Shown one piece after another: positions 47,101 through 59,100 of a DNA stretch of 64,000 bases. Each line of letters begins with the position of its first letter. Position 1 is the first letter of the stretch. A program made the position numbers. Source of the stretch: Escherichia coli (GTDB taxonomy: Bacteria > Pseudomonadota > Gammaproteobacteria > Enterobacterales > Enterobacteriaceae); the NCBI RefSeq assembly GCF_011045215.1, contig NZ_CP049201.1; one strand, given 5' to 3'.

Positions 47101-50100
47101 ATCAGCAAATGATGGCGAAAATGCGACTGCGGCCAGTGCGCCGACCAGAAATTGCCCATCACATAATCGCTTTGTTGCTGCTCGCAGAGATCAAAACGGT
47201 ACATCGACTGCCAATGCTGATGATGATTAAACTGCAACACCCAATCATCACCCTCCTGCAACAACCGATACTCTCCGTGTGGCGTGGTCTGCACGAGATC
47301 GGGAACTAAACGAATCGGCGCGGTTAGCGTCTGCCCACCGAAACCGACATCAGCAATCCATTTTTCCTCTTCCAGTTCCACCAACAGCAAACGATGGGTG
47401 CGCGGGGGTAATGCTGGCGGATTTGATAACACTACCCGCCCTAACAAGCTGCGAACGTGAAACCCCAGCTCGCGTAACACCCGCTCAAACACGCCATTCT
47501 GCTCAAAACAGTAACCGCCACGACGGGCTATCACGAGTTTCTCTTCCAGCGATTGATCATCAAGCTGCATTTCCCTCGGCAGCAAAACGTCGAGGTTTTC
47601 AAACGGAATGGTGCAATTGTGTTTCAGGTGCAATGCACGAAGCGTATCAATATTGACCGCAGCAGTTCCCGACCAGTTAATACGGGCAAAATAGTGATTC
47701 AGAATGGGCGTCATCAGGCGTTTCCCTTAGTGGTTTTCTCAACTTATAACCTGGAATAGACGCCGCACCGGCTATTTTGTGCGATCGCGGACATGCATCA
47801 CGTTCGCAAATCGCCAATCCCGTTAATTTCGTTACTTATTGCGTTACGGACTACGCTTAAAAAAACCTTCTTCGCGAGGCGATACCATGAGCCGATTCAT
47901 CCCCATAGAATTACACCATGCCAGCCGTCTGTTAAATCATGGCCCAACTGTCTTGATCACCAGTTTCGATGAGCAATCCCAGCGGCGTAACATTATGGCT
48001 GCAGCCTGGTCAATGCCGGTGGAGTTTGAACCTCCACGCGTGGCGATTGTGGTAGATAAATCGACATGGACCAGGGAGTTGATTGAACATAACGGTAAAT
48101 TTGGCATCGTTATCCCGGGCGTTGCAGCAACTAACTGGACGTGGGCAGTGGGAAGTGTATCTGGGCGTGAAGAAGATAAATTTAATTGCTACGGCATTCC
48201 GGTGGTGAAAGGTCCGGTGCTTGGTTTGCCACTTGTTGAAGAGAAATGCCTGGCGTGGATGGAGTGCCGCCTGCTACCTGCGACTTCTGCGCAACAAAAA
48301 TACGACACGCTGTTTGGCGAGGTGGTATCAGCAGCGGCAGACGCACGGGTATTTGTCGAAGGCCGCTGGCAGTTTGATGATGATAAGCTCAATACGTTGC
48401 ATCATTTAGGTGCTGGCACGTTTGTTACCAGCGGCAAGCGAGTTACGGCAGGTTAAGCATTACATGCTGTAACCGGGTTTCTTTATCAAAGCCTCCATTT
48501 GGGGCGCGATTTCGGCATCCCAGATAGCTTGCCAAGATTCTGGTTGAATCTGCTGTAGAGCAATGCTTATCGAAATGTCTTTACTGTTCAGATGGCGAAT
48601 AATAACGTCGGTAATATCTGCAGCAAGTGCTGCTTTTTGTTGTTCGTCCAGTTCACGCGGAAAACATTTAATGTCGATGTGCGGCATGATTGTGCTCCTT
48701 TTGAAAGATGTCAGTAAAATTAACACACATTGTGAATGTCGTATGTCCGGTGATGCGTTTTTACGACAATAATGCCTACTTGAAATTGTAGATATTTGCA
48801 CTACACCCTTTTAAATAAAGCACCAACAAATCGTCAACTTGCAGAACATATTCTTCTGCCTACATACCATTAAGAAAACATCAAGTTTCCGACTTGCCAA
48901 TTTATTAATGCCCATTATAGACGCTGAAACAAGCCACGGACAAAGAAGATGCCAAAATTACCGGCGATGCAGAAAAACTCAACGAACCAGGGCAAGATTA
49001 CGAAAGCCCGCTCCCGCAAGGACTGACGCCAGATAGTTTCTGTCCATGGCTGCTTTTCGCATCTTACGTCTTAACCCTGCCTTGAATACCTTATCATTCG
49101 TCAAAATATTAATAGCAATGTGCCGTATCCCTGAAAATAATTCTGCAGCATTTCCTCTTCTTATTTTGCAGTCGTCTTCATTCATTACCACGTCCAGACG
49201 CCAGTGCAGCTTATTCTCCACGTGCCAGTGGTTTCGGATTGCTGTGGCGAACTTCTCTGCGGTTAAATCAGCAGAACTGATATAATATCTGACCGTCATT
49301 TCTGGCTCTTTCTTTTGTTCTGCTATTATTGACCGAAAGGAGACTGCCACGCATAATTTCTTCAGTCCTTTCCATTCAAACGTGAAATCAATAAGTTCAT
49401 CAGGGACATCGCAAACAATATGAAGACGGATTTCTTCTCTGCCGTGACTAAAATGCGAATTATTTAGTACAAAAAAAGCGGCGCACCTTGTTCTTTCCCA
49501 GATTCCTAATATGGCAACTTTAAGTTATCGCCGTCTATACTTATAGAAATTTCATCAGGGGTGACGTAAATAGAATTTTTTTCATCCTCAATTGCCCATA
49601 ACTGATTAATAAAAAAGTATTTTTTTCATCTAATAAAAAATTATCACATGTAGTAAAATTATTAATATCAAAAAAAATCATCAGCACAATTAATTTTTAA
49701 ATTTAAAAAATAAAGAAAAATATTATTGATTGATTTGAGTGTAAACCACTTGTCATTAACAAATTTATAGCCAGATGATTTTATAAAATAATAATTATCT
49801 CCTGGTATAAAGGCATACATATCATTTAAGGTTATACTCAACAAAAAACTACGACCTGGTTTAATAGTATTCCACCGTTCAGGATTCGTATTAATTTCAA
49901 AAGGACATGAACCACCTAAGTAGTCCAACGTGATATTCCCAGAGTTGATTCTGAATGGTTTTTTGCATATCGCATCATATTCATCTCCTTTTCCATCTTT
50001 TACTTTCATAGGTAGATAATATTTAGAAAAAAAATACGTGGTAGAGCTATTGTTAGTAAAGGTTATGTTAGCAAAAATCCTGTTATTTTTTTTACTCATA

Positions 50101-56100: not shown

Positions 56101-59100
56101 AAAGGTGTCCGGCTCCTGGCCGTCAACCTCCAGCGTAAAGCGCAGACCTTTTAAGGACATAAATACCTCTCAGACATATCAGCCTATATTTACCGTACCG
56201 CCACCAATGACCACGCCGCCGCAGTCAACAGCATCACCGCTTCTGGCGGCGGGCAGGCCGTCAATAAAGACGGTTGAAGAACCTCTGGCGATTTTACGGG
56301 GATGAGGGGGATGCTTCGGTTTAGCATGCGGCGTCAGCGGATCTCCCTGACGGGCTGCGGGGAGACCATCGATAAAAACGGTGGATGACCCGGCGGTGAT
56401 GACGGTCTCGTAATAACCGTCGTGCTGAGTGCCTTTGTCGGTGAGTTTGGCTGCTAAAGGCATAATTTCTCCTGTTCAGAATTTCTACAGCAGCAGGTTT
56501 CAAAAATCCGGAGAAATATTCAACGAAATATTAATCACTTCACCGGATATTCTGATACGTACCTTCACTGGTCTATTTAAGTAATACAAATTGTTGGCGT
56601 GTATTAAGTTCCATTTTGTTCTCCTTAATTATGTAAGGAGTATTTGATCATGTATAAGCAATAAAAACAGCTTCAGGAAATAAGGAATATCGCAATTTTT
56701 AAACATAAAATGCGAATCGTTCAATACAAAAAAGCAGCGTTGCGTAATCTTTCCCTGATTAAATACGCTACCGCCCTACCCTGATGACATGATCTGCACT
56801 GCACTATCATATCGACATGTTTCTCTACATGCGAAAAGATGTTTTATTTTCGGATTATATTAAATTGACATTTCATATAAAAAACGAAATTACATCAATC
56901 ATATAAATAATTGTACCAACTTTAATTACTATTCATAGCAAACAAATGGATATCCAGTTAACTACGCCAGTGATTCATTAACATTAACCTCCGGCATTAT
57001 TGTTAAATAATGACATTCCTTTTTAATACTTCTTGTAATTTCGGTAACTGACATACTGCATCAGCAATCGCACTGATATTCGTGGCATTATCCTGAAACC
57101 ATTCATGCCCAGGCCCCCATGTGCGCATAGTGCAAAGATAACAGTCCACCAGCGTTAGTTGCTCACCAAACGCATAAGGTTCAGCGGTCAATTGTGAATT
57201 CAGCCAGATATAAAGCGATTTACGATATTCAATAACATTCTTCTTTAACTGTTCAGGTGCGTCAGATGCCCAACGCTCAGGGTAATCGGCGAAAGTGAAT
57301 GTTGGATAGACATTAGCAACCAGCCAGACCAATAGCCGTTGAAACTGCTGACGTTCGGCGCGCCCAACCGGTGGCGCAAGGTCCGGGCGACGATCGAGAA
57401 CCATCAATGCAATCGCCGCTGTCTCCGTCATAATCTCGTCATTTTCCAGAGCCAGTGTCGGAACCTGACACAACGGGTTCAGGGTTTTCAATAACTCGCG
57501 TGAAGTTCCCTCGTGGTCAAAACCACTGACATCAACGAACTGATAAGGAATATCAGCTAGTGTTAGCATCAGCTCACTGATTGTAGAGCCCCATCCGGGT
57601 ACGCCATACACCTTAATCATATGCCCCTCACAATCTTTTAAAGATTAAGTGTAGGACAGTACACAGGTTAACCAGCAAAAGGATTTGTCATTTTTTCGTC
57701 AGTTGTATTGATCCCCTTCAGGATTGTAAGGGGATGTTTTGCATCGTTTATCGATAACGGGTAGGATGCTGCGCCGATAGTTTTATACCCATAAAGAATA
57801 ATGGTGATAACTATCATCGCCAGGATGAATAAACATTGTTCATGGCAACTTATATGACTTTTTCATTAAAGCAATCAGGGAGAGCAATGAGTAAACACGA
57901 CACCGACACTTCAGATCAACACGCCGCGAAACGCCGCTGGCTTAATGCCCACGAAGAGGGGTATCACAAAGCGATGGGCAATCGCCAGGTGCAGATGATC
58001 GCCATTGGCGGCGCGATTGGTACGGGTTTGTTTTTAGGCGCAGGAGCCCGACTGCAAATGGCGGGGCCAGCACTGGCATTGGTCTATTTGATCTGCGGCC
58101 TGTTTTCATTTTTTATTCTGCGTGCATTGGGTGAGCTGGTGTTACACCGCCCTTCCAGTGGCAGTTTTGTCTCTTATGCCCGCGAGTTTTTGGGTGAGAA
58201 AGCCGCTTATGTTGCGGGCTGGATGTACTTCATCAACTGGGCGATGACGGGGATTGTCGATATCACCGCCGTCGCTCTGTATATGCATTACTGGGGTGCG
58301 TTTGGCGGCGTGCCGCAGTGGGTCTTTGCGCTCGCTGCACTTACCATCGTTGGCACCATGAATATGATCGGTGTGAAATGGTTTGCGGAGATGGAGTTCT
58401 GGTTTGCGCTTATTAAAGTGCTCGCCATTGTGACCTTTTTGGTCGTGGGTACAGTGTTCCTCGGTAGTGGTCAGCCGCTGGATGGCAACACCACTGGCTT
58501 TCATTTAATCACCGATAATGGCGGCTTCTTCCCCCACGGTTTGCTGCCTGCGCTGGTGTTGATTCAGGGCGTAGTGTTTGCTTTTGCCTCCATTGAAATG
58601 GTGGGTACAGCTGCCGGAGAATGTAAAGATCCGCAGACCATGGTGCCTAAAGCCATTAACAGTGTGATTTGGCGTATTGGCCTGTTTTACGTCGGCTCCG
58701 TGGTGTTGCTGGTTATGTTATTGCCGTGGAGCGCGTATCAGGCGGGGCAAAGTCCGTTCGTGACGTTTTTCTCTAAACTGGGTGTGCCATATATCGGCAG
58801 CATTATGAACATTGTGGTGCTGACCGCTGCCCTCTCCAGCCTGAACTCAGGCCTGTACTGCACCGGGCGTATTCTGCGCTCGATGGCGATGGGCGGTTCC
58901 GCACCGAGTTTTATGGCGAAAATGAGTCGTCAGCATGTGCCGTATGCCGGGATTCTGGCGACACTGGTTGTGTATGTCGTCGGCGTATTCCTCAACTATC
59001 TGGTGCCGTCGCGCGTATTTGAGATTGTGTTGAACTTCGCGTCGCTGGGAATCATCGCTTCATGGGCGTTTATCATCGTGTGCCAGATGCGCCTGCGTAA

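What the first reader, a model, noticed from the sequence alone, without database searches (positions are those of the whole stretch)
49450..56760. Island is bracketed by two ISAs1 (H-repeat) transposase fragments
The segment 49450-49505, inside the truncated ISAs1 transposase remnant at 48979-49524, recurs as a diverged ~55-bp copy at 56706-56760, just beyond the PAAR-vgrG promoter region. Both translate to transposase-like peptide (FFVLNNSHF and FFVLNDSHF). This suggests the cargo was exchanged or deleted by recombination between H-repeat copies, the same elements that accompany Rhs loci in K-12.
Basis: seen in the sequence. Interest (0 to 1): 0.55.

Follow-up and report, generated by a model that had tools for sequence, protein, structure and literature searches.

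The report
IS left-end relics bracket T6SS island
The two similar 55-bp stretches are real and are the non-coding left ends of decayed ISEc1 (H-repeat, ISAs1-family) insertion sequences flanking a type VI secretion toxin island at the classic E. coli RhsE site, which is a known architecture rather than a new system.

Summary
The repeat is real: 43 of 56 positions match, with a local score of 28 against 12.3±1.4 for shuffles. Both copies derive from ISEc1/H-rpt. They are not transposase coding sequence. They are the left inverted repeat plus untranslated leader, and the transposase ATG lies about 95 bp further in. Copy B is 155 bp long (56604-56757), not 55 bp, and it is the relic of an H-rpt that is full length at the same site in a few genomes. 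Copy A (49449-49501) is fused to ISEc1 830-1292, which ends in the right inverted repeat at 48988. A third left end, C (51184-51216), sits between cpi1 and an orphan M35 module.

The locus lies between yncG and pptA, which is the K-12 rhsE/ydcC site. Other strains carry Rhs, other vgrG cargo, or nothing in the same frame.

The exchange that shaped this window was not recombination between copies A and B. A Cpe1 cassette, 99.1% identical to the yafV-locus copy, entered through a crossover in the vgrG core near 54,470-54,550. Its other end is a non-homologous join at H-rpt position 33. All three H-rpt breakpoints are non-homologous. No clean single-H-rpt deletion product was seen among the records inspected. 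This is a known architecture and of low interest.

The parts
56604..56757 (-). Copy B: relic of ISEc1/H-rpt positions 2-156. It holds the left inverted repeat (CAGGGAAAG...), the whole 5' leader, and the transposase ATG (56614-56612) plus 3-4 codons. It is fused to the PAAR upstream region. The fusion creates a 13-codon ORF, MELNTRQQFVLLK* (56614-56573).
   Evidence: blastn against full ISEc1: 92%, E 6e-60. Collinear with a full-length H-rpt at the same flank in O158:H23, L014. Junction sequence. Both of its junctions are present in 686 of 5426 genomes.
56763..56799 (.). A 37-bp chromosomal flank just outside copy B's inverted repeat. It is shared with K-12 and HS, where it abuts different island sequence. 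It marks the common left boundary of the variable region.
   Evidence: blastn of window against K-12 L004 4614-4578 and HS L005, 94.6%.
56464..56603 (-). PAAR upstream region. In LF82 it continues for 215 bp more and then reaches the right end of an H-rpt.
   Evidence: Window 54471-56606 = L011 11399-13534, with the IRR at L011 13750.
56179..56463 (-). T6SS PAAR protein gene.
   Evidence: NF033420, E 1.4e-46, above the curated cut-off.
54178..56160 (-). vgrG (660 aa). The core from ~54,500 to 56,160 is conserved, has 54-61% GC, and is mosaic between strains. The C-terminal part below ~54,470 belongs to the imported Cpe1 cassette.
   Evidence: TIGR03361, E 1e-180. Identity profile switches near 54,470-54,550. 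GC profile.
53025..54071 (-). DUF2169-family T6SS accessory (adaptor) gene.
   Evidence: RefSeq annotation of the 99%-identical loci L002 and L003. No NCBIfam hit here.
51593..53032 (-). cpe1: PAAR-like cysteine-protease effector gene.
   Evidence: RefSeq names in L003. 99.1% DNA identity. Effector characterised in PMC12136450.
51328..51618 (-). cpi1: immunity gene.
   Evidence: RefSeq names in L003. 99.1% DNA identity.
51184..51216 (-). Copy C: the first ~30-33 bp of the H-rpt that follows cpi1 at the yafV locus. The join to the resident module lies at 51186|51187.
   Evidence: blastn against ISEc1 1-33. Identical to the L003 sequence after cpi1, which there continues into an H-rpt. Junction present in 34 of 5426 genomes.
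51142..51186 (-). The last ~45 bp of a displaced 801-aa-type vgrG, left as a relic upstream of the M35 gene.
   Evidence: Window 48987-51186 = L012 8547-10747. In L012 the vgrG runs 10692-13097 and the M35 gene starts at 10702.
50350..51141 (-). Orphan M35 metallopeptidase effector gene. It is frameshifted near codon 147, before the HEMSH motif, so it is a pseudogene.
   Evidence: Translation compared with the intact L012 gene. In about 500 genomes it directly follows a vgrG.
49668..50327 (-). Hypothetical 219-aa gene that travels with the M35 gene. It is a putative immunity gene.
   Evidence: Co-linear with the M35 gene in L012, L011, L001 and L009. The function is inferred from position only.
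49449..49501 (-). Copy A: left inverted repeat (degenerate, CTGGG) plus leader positions ~1-53 of a diverged H-rpt type that is linked to the M35 module.
   Evidence: 86% to ISEc1 4-53. Same inverted-repeat variant as after the M35 module in LF82. Junction 53|830, present in 218 of 5426 genomes.
48988..49449 (-). ISEc1 positions 830-1292: the 3' 40% of the transposase gene and the right inverted repeat (CAGGG at 48988-48992). It is equivalent to the 3' end of K-12 ydcC.
   Evidence: 98.5% to ISEc1 and 98.1% to K-12 ydcC. NF033564 ISAs1 transposase, E 7.7e-37, profile positions 204-314. Inverted repeat with B (I2).
48777..48986 (.). A 210-bp segment between the pptA flank and the IRR that is absent from K-12. 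It is a relic of a diguanylate-cyclase/sulfatase segment that is intact in O158:H23.

Best explanation
The 55-bp repeat is the left terminal inverted repeat plus untranslated leader of ISEc1 (the 'H-repeat' of Rhs elements, ISAs1 family). The window holds three such left ends in the same orientation and one right end. All are relics, and none encodes a working transposase.

**Layout, read on the minus strand.** yncG; chromosomal flank; [B: H-rpt 1-156]; PAAR-vgrG-DUF2169-cpe1-cpi1; [C: H-rpt 1-33]; ['vgrG tail, M35 pseudogene, putative immunity gene]; [A: H-rpt 1-53 fused to H-rpt 830-1292, ending in the IRR]; pptA.

**What is shown.**
- Each effector cassette carries its own variant of the H-rpt left end immediately downstream.
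- B is the stump of an H-rpt that is still full length at the same site in a few strains.
- The locus is the K-12 RhsE site.

**Inferred history.**
1. An ancestral locus had H-rpts on both sides of a vgrG or Rhs module.
2. A deletion from H-rpt position ~157 into the PAAR upstream region produced B. This is the oldest junction, found in 686 genomes.
3. A resident PAAR-vgrG(801 aa)-M35-immunity module ended in a chimeric H-rpt made of a diverged left end and a canonical right part (218 genomes).
4. A Cpe1 cassette of the yafV-locus type then replaced the vgrG C-terminus. It entered by homologous crossover in the conserved vgrG core. Its other end is a non-homologous join inside its own trailing H-rpt leader. 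This happened either in one step (homology-facilitated illegitimate recombination) or through an LF82-like tandem of modules followed by a deletion. The result is found in 34 genomes.
5. M35 was left as an orphan without its vgrG and has since frameshifted.

At this locus the H-rpts act as co-travelling cassette boundaries and probably as portable homology. The present A and B copies are too short and too diverged to recombine with each other.
For: - **Identity of the pieces.** (ISEc1 mapping; ISAs1 transposase model on 48982-49449; CAGGG-type inverted repeats, alignment of 12 left ends).
- **Non-coding nature.** (annotated CDS starts at ISEc1 position 146; there is a stop in the FFVLNNSHF frame).
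- **Locus identity.**
- **B as a stump of a full H-rpt.**
- **Cassette-specific inverted-repeat variants.**
- **Recipient-like structure.** L012 = B-PAAR-vgrG801-M35-immunity-A.
- **Donor-like structure.** L002/L003, 99.1% identical over 51184-54470 but only 83-88% in the next 400 bp.
- **GC profile.** GC jumps from 38% to 57% at about 54,500.
- **Junction sequences.**
- **Nested junction frequencies.** 686 > 218 > 34 genomes.
- **Tandem modules separated by an H-rpt.** LF82.
- **A second, independent stacked junction.** Strain A30: H-rpt 1-131 joined to a vgrG C-terminal fragment, followed by M23.
- **M35 frameshift.**
- **Published background.** ISAs1 elements are enriched near chromosomal orphan T6SS islands (PMC13098142). 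H-rpt are components of Rhs loci, and b1455-b1461 is an Rhs site (PMC3032704).
Against: - The order of events is inferred from junction frequencies in a biased genome collection, not from a phylogeny.
- The one-step route and the tandem-plus-deletion route cannot be separated.
- The claim that H-rpts serve as homology arms is not directly shown. No H-rpt with a demonstrable internal crossover was identified.
- Copy A's chimeric nature rests on identity differences over only 50 bp.
- The immunity role of the 219-aa gene is positional inference only.
Confidence: 0.75

Rival explanations
1. Homologous recombination between the two bracketing H-repeat copies, or between H-repeats at different loci, exchanged or deleted the cargo of this island.
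For: - The copies are in direct orientation on both sides.
- Full-length H-rpts occur at the B site with Rhs or other cargo and a second H-rpt downstream.
- Cargo differs between strains within a constant frame.
- The yafV-locus and yncG-locus modules both end in H-rpts.
- Strain 18KM2445 has a lone H-rpt at the B site and no island.
Against: - The exchange recorded in this window has its left crossover in vgrG and a non-homologous right join at H-rpt position 33. A crossover in the right-hand H-rpt would have removed the M35 module, which is still present.
- All three H-rpt breakpoints have 0-2 bp of microhomology.
- No clean hybrid single H-rpt with both flanks was seen among the 55 small-site genomes. 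Four were inspected and the rest were judged from their listed annotation.
- The lone H-rpt in 18KM2445 is truncated at position 1043, and a single non-homologous deletion explains it equally well.
- A and B share only a 12-bp identical run.
Confidence: 0.2
2. The whole 7.8-kb unit, from B's left inverted repeat (56757) to the right inverted repeat (48988), is a cargo-carrying ISAs1 derivative (a transporter IS or pseudo-compound transposon). It moved into the yncG-pptA site as one piece through the action of ISAs1 transposase.
For: - The two outermost ends are a correctly oriented IRL/IRR pair, 79% complementary over 28 nt (I2).
- Two different chromosomal flanks (48776 in K-12, 48986 in the window) end exactly at the outer base of the IRR. 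IS-mediated adjacent deletions would produce this pattern.
Against: - There is no target-site duplication at the outer ends (sequences).
- The same IRL-flank and IRR-flank junctions carry quite different cargo in other strains.
- At the yafV locus only 51184-56475 and 48988-49433 are shared. Copy B is absent there and the boundaries differ.
- No intact transposase gene is present in the 64-kb window.
- Transposition of H-rpt has not been observed (PMC3032704).
Confidence: 0.04
3. Copy B is retained because it works. The ISEc1 leader, with its transposase promoter, now points into PAAR-vgrG and supplies or modulates transcription of the island.
For: - B has the same orientation as PAAR-vgrG and lies ~140 bp upstream of the PAAR gene.
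- B keeps the entire leader, the Shine-Dalgarno hairpin and the ATG at 92% identity although the transposase gene is gone.
- It is conserved with both junctions in 686 genomes.
- A -35/-10-like site lies in the leader at 56656-56628.
Against: - The number of promoter-like sites is not above the shuffled expectation (4 found against 3.4±1.8). The site in the leader matches only 9 of 12 positions.
- The leader fold is not unusual, with a z-score of -1.0.
- Conservation in 686 genomes may simply reflect vertical inheritance.
- LF82 and the yafV-locus modules express the same PAAR-vgrG arrangement without B.
Confidence: 0.12

Closest known systems
H-rpt (H-repeat) / ISEc1 elements of E. coli Rhs loci, ISAs1 family. 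In K-12 these are ydcC and the yncI pseudogene downstream of rhsE.
   Same: - Same chromosomal site, with the right end (IRR) next to the pptA flank as in K-12 apart from 210 extra bp (48777-48986).
- 98% identity of 48988-49449 to ydcC.
- Same CAGGG-type inverted repeats.
- Same position downstream of a toxin/immunity module.

   Different: - Here no copy is intact. There are three left-end stumps (156, 33 and 53 bp) and one 3' part.
- One stump lies upstream of the island, where K-12 has no H-rpt.
- The cargo is PAAR-vgrG plus Cpe1/Cpi1 and M35 modules instead of an rhs core.
T6SS auxiliary 'vgrG islands' carrying VT effector/immunity modules in E. coli (Ma et al. 2018, as reviewed in PMC6730261), and the Cpe1/Cpi1 pair (PMC12136450).
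   Same: PAAR-vgrG-adaptor-effector-immunity order. Low-GC variable cargo sits behind a conserved vgrG core.
   Different: The finding concerns the IS relics that delimit the modules, not the effectors themselves. The papers read here do not discuss these relics for this island.
Orphan toxin/immunity arrays downstream of rhs and cdiA genes, in which displaced C-terminal tips accumulate (recalled from Poole et al. 2011 and Koskiniemi et al. 2014; partly restated in PMC3032704).
   Same: An older effector/immunity module (M35) persists downstream of the newer one. It is preceded by a short relic of its former carrier gene and is decaying.
   Different: The carrier relic is a vgrG 3' end rather than an rhs or cdiA core fragment. 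The joint between modules is an IS left end rather than a stretch of core homology.
H-rpt/ISAs1-associated recombination in O-antigen (rfb) clusters of Salmonella and Vibrio cholerae (recalled from Xiang, Hobbs and Reeves 1994; not checked here).
   Same: An ISAs1-family relic sits at the junction between gene blocks of different origin.
   Different: Different locus and cargo. Here the junctions are demonstrably non-homologous deletions or joins inside the IS leader.

Membership tests
ISAs1 family insertion sequence (ISEc1 / H-rpt) | Encodes an ISAs1-family DDE transposase | tested here: met
   48982-49449(-) matches NF033564 at E 7.7e-37, 127 bits against a cut-off of 70. Only profile positions 204-314 of 314 are covered. 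98.5% DNA identity to ISEc1 830-1292.
ISAs1 family insertion sequence (ISEc1 / H-rpt) | Terminal inverted repeats of the family (ends CAGGG...) | tested here: met
   The IRR at 48988 and the IRLs at 56757 and 51215 read CAGGG(A/C)AAG. Copy A is degenerate (CTGGG). B's IRL and the IRR are 79% complementary over 28 nt. The 'CAGGG ends' criterion itself is recalled from ISfinder and was not checked here.
ISAs1 family insertion sequence (ISEc1 / H-rpt) | Complete element (~1.3 kb) with an intact transposase gene, capable of transposition | tested here: not met
   No copy in the 64-kb window is complete. The pieces are 1-156, 1-33, and 1-53 fused to 830-1292.
ISAs1 family insertion sequence (ISEc1 / H-rpt) | Target-site duplication flanking the element | tested here: not met
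   No direct repeat was found next to B's IRL (AAATACGCTA...) or next to the IRR flank, either for the individual relics or for the whole B-to-IRR unit. Later adjacent deletions could have erased one.
   They map to ISEc1 positions 1-53. The annotated CDS starts at position 146. The FFVLNNSHF frame stops after four more codons in the intact element.
Composite or cargo-carrying transposon | The same bounded unit is found at different insertion sites | tested here: not met
   The yafV-locus relatives share only 51184-56475 and 48988-49433, and they lack copy B. At the yncG-pptA site the ends are constant while the cargo varies.
T6SS auxiliary vgrG island | PAAR and VgrG genes followed by effector/immunity genes | tested here: met
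   NF033420 and TIGR03361 hits. cpe1/cpi1 and the M35 peptidase are named in 97-99% identical RefSeq loci. Secretion and toxicity cannot be tested with these tools.
Orphan (displaced) effector/immunity module | It lies downstream of a newer module, lacks its own carrier gene, and retains a relic of that gene | tested here: met
   The last ~45 bp of the 801-aa vgrG are retained at 51142-51186. The intact arrangement is seen in L012. The M35 gene is frameshifted in the window.

The most novel reading that the evidence does not exclude
The first ~160 bp of ISEc1/H-rpt may be a preferred joint for stacking and trimming T6SS cassettes, not just passive homology. Six of about fourteen independent H-rpt breakpoints seen in the loci examined fall at positions 33, 53, 54, 67, 131 and 156, all at A/T runs. 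Two independent module-to-module joints (the window and strain A30) both lie in this region. This could reflect a transposase-dependent or structure-dependent process, or selection to keep the IS leader as an outward-facing promoter or translation signal for the downstream module.
Probability: 0.12. Interest if true: 0.55.

Novelty: already known. Interest (0 to 1): 0.2.

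Why it matters
- **Annotation.** These 30-155 bp stretches are IS ends, not transposase peptides. The '462-bp ISAs1 pseudogene' that pipelines report is an element with both ends and an internal gap.
- **A worked example of toxin turnover.** The window shows how E. coli changes T6SS toxins at the RhsE site. The conserved vgrG core provides the crossover point. Each cassette brings its own H-repeat. Displaced effectors remain as decaying orphans.
- **Link to O145:H28.** The window appears to preserve the intact precursor of the degraded island found in O145:H28 strains.
- **Limits.** None of this changes current understanding of ISAs1 elements or T6SS islands.

Tried and rejected
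- **Target-site duplications.** I looked for them around each relic and around the whole B-to-IRR unit and found none.
- **Deletion product of H-rpt x H-rpt recombination.** I searched with a synthetic flank-to-flank query. 55 of 5426 genomes have the flanks within 2 kb. Four were inspected (HS, W409, EC261, JMF1) and the annotation of the other listed rows was read. They are IS1-associated deletions, truncated H-rpts or a vgrG remnant, and none is a clean hybrid H-rpt.
- **Strain 18KM2445.** Its lone H-rpt at the B site looked promising. It is cut at position 1043 and joined inside an unrelated gene, so one non-homologous deletion explains it.
- **Promoter in copy B.** The consensus scan is not above the shuffled expectation, and the leader fold has a z-score of -1.0.
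- **Other ISEc1 pieces in the 64-kb window.** None found.
- **Literature search for 'ISAs1' plus 'H-repeat'.** It returned nothing in the held library. The primary H-rpt papers (Zhao et al. 1993; Hill et al. 1994) are cited from memory only.
- **NCBIfam.** It gave no hits for DUF2169, Cpe1, Cpi1, M35 or the 219-aa protein. Their names rest on RefSeq annotation of near-identical loci.

Full report
**1. The observation**

49449-49505 and 56706-56760 align at 43 of 56 columns with one gap, and the longest identical run is 12 bp. The best local score of the first segment against the rest of the island is 28. Two hundred shuffles gave 12.3 ± 1.4, with a maximum of 18. One is a third partial copy at 51184-51220. 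The other is an inverted match between 56733-56760 and 48985-49012, the far end of the transposase remnant.

**2. What the repeat is**

RefSeq annotates a full-length 'ISAs1-like element ISEc1 family transposase' in a related E. coli locus (L002). I used the 1296-bp element as a probe. It maps onto the window in exactly four places:

| ISEc1 positions | Window coordinates | Identity | Name |
|---|---|---|---|
| 830-1292 | 49449-48988 | 98.5% | 3' part with right end |
| 4-53 | 49499-49449 | 86% | copy A |
| 2-156 | 56757-56604 | 92%, E 6e-60 | copy B |
| 1-33 | 51216-51184 | 85% | copy C |

- The annotated transposase gene begins at ISEc1 position 146. The shared 55 bp are therefore the left terminal inverted repeat (CAGGGAAAG...) plus part of the untranslated leader.
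- The frame that reads FFVLNNSHF stops four codons later in the intact element.
- The 3' part is genuine transposase. 48982-49449 matches the NCBIfam ISAs1 transposase model at E 7.7e-37 over profile positions 204-314.
- The 'truncated remnant' is therefore an element with both ends and a gap from position 54 to 829.
- Copy B is three times longer than reported. It runs through the whole leader, including a hairpin that pairs the Shine-Dalgarno sequence, to the transposase ATG at 56614-56612 and three to four codons beyond. There it is fused to the PAAR upstream region.

**3. Where this is**

The flanking genes are pptA, yddH and nhoA on one side and yncG and ansP on the other. In K-12 this interval holds yncH, rhsE, ydcD, yncI (a diverged H-rpt pseudogene) and ydcC (an intact H-rpt).

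- The window's 3' transposase part is 98% identical to ydcC. Its right end lies beside the pptA flank as in K-12, apart from 210 extra bp in the window.
- A 37-bp stretch just outside copy B (56763-56799) is also present in K-12 and HS. There it abuts different island sequence, so it marks a common left boundary.
- The published list of Rhs sites gives b1455-b1461 as the rhsE region. The same paper notes that H-rpt are annotated as IS although transposition has not been observed (PMC3032704).

**4. The island**

On the minus strand the island carries, in order:
- PAAR (56179-56463);
- vgrG (54178-56160);
- a DUF2169 adaptor gene (53025-54071);
- cpe1 (51593-53032);
- cpi1 (51328-51618);
- copy C;
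- an M35 peptidase gene (50350-51141);
- a 219-aa gene (49668-50327);
- copy A.

PAAR and VgrG pass the NCBIfam cut-offs. The other names come from RefSeq annotation of 97-99% identical loci and from the Cpe1/Cpi1 paper (PMC12136450). The vgrG core has 54-61% GC, and everything from 49,500 to 54,500 has 27-39% GC.

**5. Comparative anatomy**

- **Copy B with both of its junctions** occurs in 686 of 5426 complete E. coli genomes.
- **Longer H-rpt at the B site.** In seven genomes the same flank runs into a longer H-rpt. Three were inspected.
  - In O158:H23 the H-rpt is full length. It is followed by two unrelated genes and a second H-rpt.
  - In KE55 it is full length. It is followed by an rhs gene, an immunity gene and another H-rpt.
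  - In 18KM2445 it is a lone H-rpt (positions 2-1043) with no island.
  - The alignment of twelve left ends shows that B and the O158 element share both flank and inverted-repeat variant. B is therefore the stump of an H-rpt that once stood upstream of the island.
- **LF82** shows what the missing part looked like. There an H-rpt right end lies 215 bp further upstream of the same PAAR leader, between two tandem vgrG modules.
- **Each cassette has its own left-end variant.** Copy C is identical to the sequence after cpi1 at the yafV locus, where it continues into an H-rpt. Copy A matches the variant found after the M35 module in LF82.

**6. How this particular island was assembled**

- **Recipient-like form.** Strain FDAARGOS_1290 (L012) has, at the same locus, B-PAAR-vgrG(801 aa)-M35-219-aa gene-A. 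The window equals L012 except that L012 10748-11407 (the vgrG C-terminal extension) is replaced by window 51187-54470.
- **Donor-like form.** That 3.3-kb insert is 99.1% identical to the yafV-locus Cpe1 module. The next 400 bp of vgrG are only 83-88% identical to that module, and up to 98% identical to L012. The left end of the exchange is therefore a crossover in the vgrG core at about 54,470-54,550. This is also where the GC content changes.
- **The right end** is a join between H-rpt position ~33 and the last ~45-56 bp of the resident vgrG, with at most 2 bp of microhomology.
- **The other two H-rpt breakpoints** are equally non-homologous. They are 53|830 in copy A and ~156|PAAR upstream in copy B.
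- **Copy A looks chimeric.** Its left 50 bp are of the diverged M35-linked type (83-86% to ISEc1). Its right part is canonical (98.5%). This fits a deletion spanning two adjacent H-rpts, like the yncI-ydcC pair in K-12, but that is inference.
- **Relative order.** The junction counts of 686 (B), 218 (A) and 34 (C) genomes suggest the order of events.
- **The displaced M35 gene** is frameshifted before its HEMSH motif in the window.
- **O145:H28 strains** carry the same B, C and A junctions plus a further deletion of 52095-54686. The window therefore looks like the intact precursor of their degraded island.

**7.

The architecture fits the idea that H-repeats frame exchangeable cargo. H-rpts occur on both sides, cargo varies within a constant frame, and the same module type at two loci ends in an H-rpt each time. 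A statistical association of ISAs1 elements with chromosomal orphan T6SS islands has been published (PMC13098142).

The events recorded in this window, however, did not use H-rpt homology.
- A right-hand crossover in H-rpt homology would have removed M35, and M35 is still there.
- Strain A30 shows a second, independent case of the same pattern. There H-rpt 1-131 is joined to the middle of a second vgrG, which is followed by an M23 effector gene.
- A direct search for the expected deletion product gave 55 genomes with the flanks within 2 kb. Those inspected, and the annotation listed for the rest, show IS1-associated deletions or truncated forms. None is a clean hybrid H-rpt.
- A and B today share only 12 identical bases in a row. 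From general knowledge, this is below the roughly 25 bp that RecA-dependent exchange needs in E. coli.

Whether the Cpe1 import was a single homology-facilitated illegitimate event, or an LF82-like tandem followed by a deletion, cannot be decided from these data.

**8. Other readings considered**

- **En-bloc transposon bounded by B's IRL and the IRR.** This is unlikely. There is no target duplication, the ends are constant while cargo varies, the unit does not occur elsewhere, and there is no transposase gene.
- **A promoter role for copy B.** This is possible but unsupported.
- **Breakpoint clustering.** The clustering of H-rpt breakpoints in the first 160 bp at A/T runs remains unexplained. 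It is the only feature here that might hide something new.

**9. Verdict**

The segments are IS ends and leader, not coding sequence. Copy B is 155 bp long, and there is a third copy. It is not supported for the actual exchange mechanism. The whole is an instance of a known association between H-rpt/ISAs1 elements and Rhs/vgrG islands, and it is of low interest beyond annotation and a tidy evolutionary reconstruction.

Noticed in passing
window 48777-48986: A 210-bp segment between the pptA flank and the ISEc1 right end is absent from K-12 and O145 strains but contiguous in 161 genomes. In O158:H23, 48777-48920 is pptA flank and 48919-48985 is a piece of the 3' end of an alkyl/aryl-sulfatase gene. 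The segment is therefore a relic of a diguanylate-cyclase/sulfatase block. Two different flanks (48776-type and 48986-type) both end exactly at the outer base of the IRR, as IS-mediated adjacent deletions would.
   Followed up: partly
window 56621-56640 (minus strand): The ISEc1 leader contains a 7-bp hairpin, CUCCUUA-CAUAAU-UAAGGAG, whose 3' arm is the transposase Shine-Dalgarno sequence and whose loop holds a -10-like CATAAT. This resembles the fold-back inhibition of read-through translation known from IS10. It is preserved in copy B and in most left ends aligned.
   Followed up: partly
window 50350-51141 (minus strand): The orphan M35 metallopeptidase gene is frameshifted near codon 147, upstream of the HEMSH zinc motif. 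It is intact in FDAARGOS_1290, where it directly follows its vgrG.
   Followed up: yes
window 56573-56614 (minus strand): The fusion of copy B to the PAAR upstream region creates a 13-codon ORF (MELNTRQQFVLLK*). It starts at the old transposase ATG, with its ribosome-binding site, ~110 bp upstream of the PAAR gene.
   Followed up: no
window 51184-51216, 49449-49501, 56604-56757; L010 8377-8507; L011 8987-9050 and 14467-14494: H-rpt breakpoints in the loci examined cluster in the first 160 bp, at A/T runs (positions 33, 53, 54, 67, 131, 156). Others lie at 533, 697, 784, 918 and 1043. About 1.7 of 14 would be expected in that stretch if breakpoints were uniform, but ascertainment is biased.
   Followed up: partly
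window 52081 (inside cpe1); L010 9603: Strain A30 shares 52081-59500 with the window at 98.7% but has a different toxin C-terminus and immunity gene below 52081. There is therefore a further recombination point at the PAAR-like N-terminus/toxin boundary of cpe1, typical of polymorphic toxins.
   Followed up: partly
window 52095-54686; L001, L009: O145:H28 and related genomes carry the same island with a 2.6-kb deletion that fuses a truncated vgrG to the C39-like C-terminal part of cpe1. The window has the undeleted form. Only one genome in the collection covers at least 80% of 48700-57100, and it has an extra IS600.
   Followed up: partly
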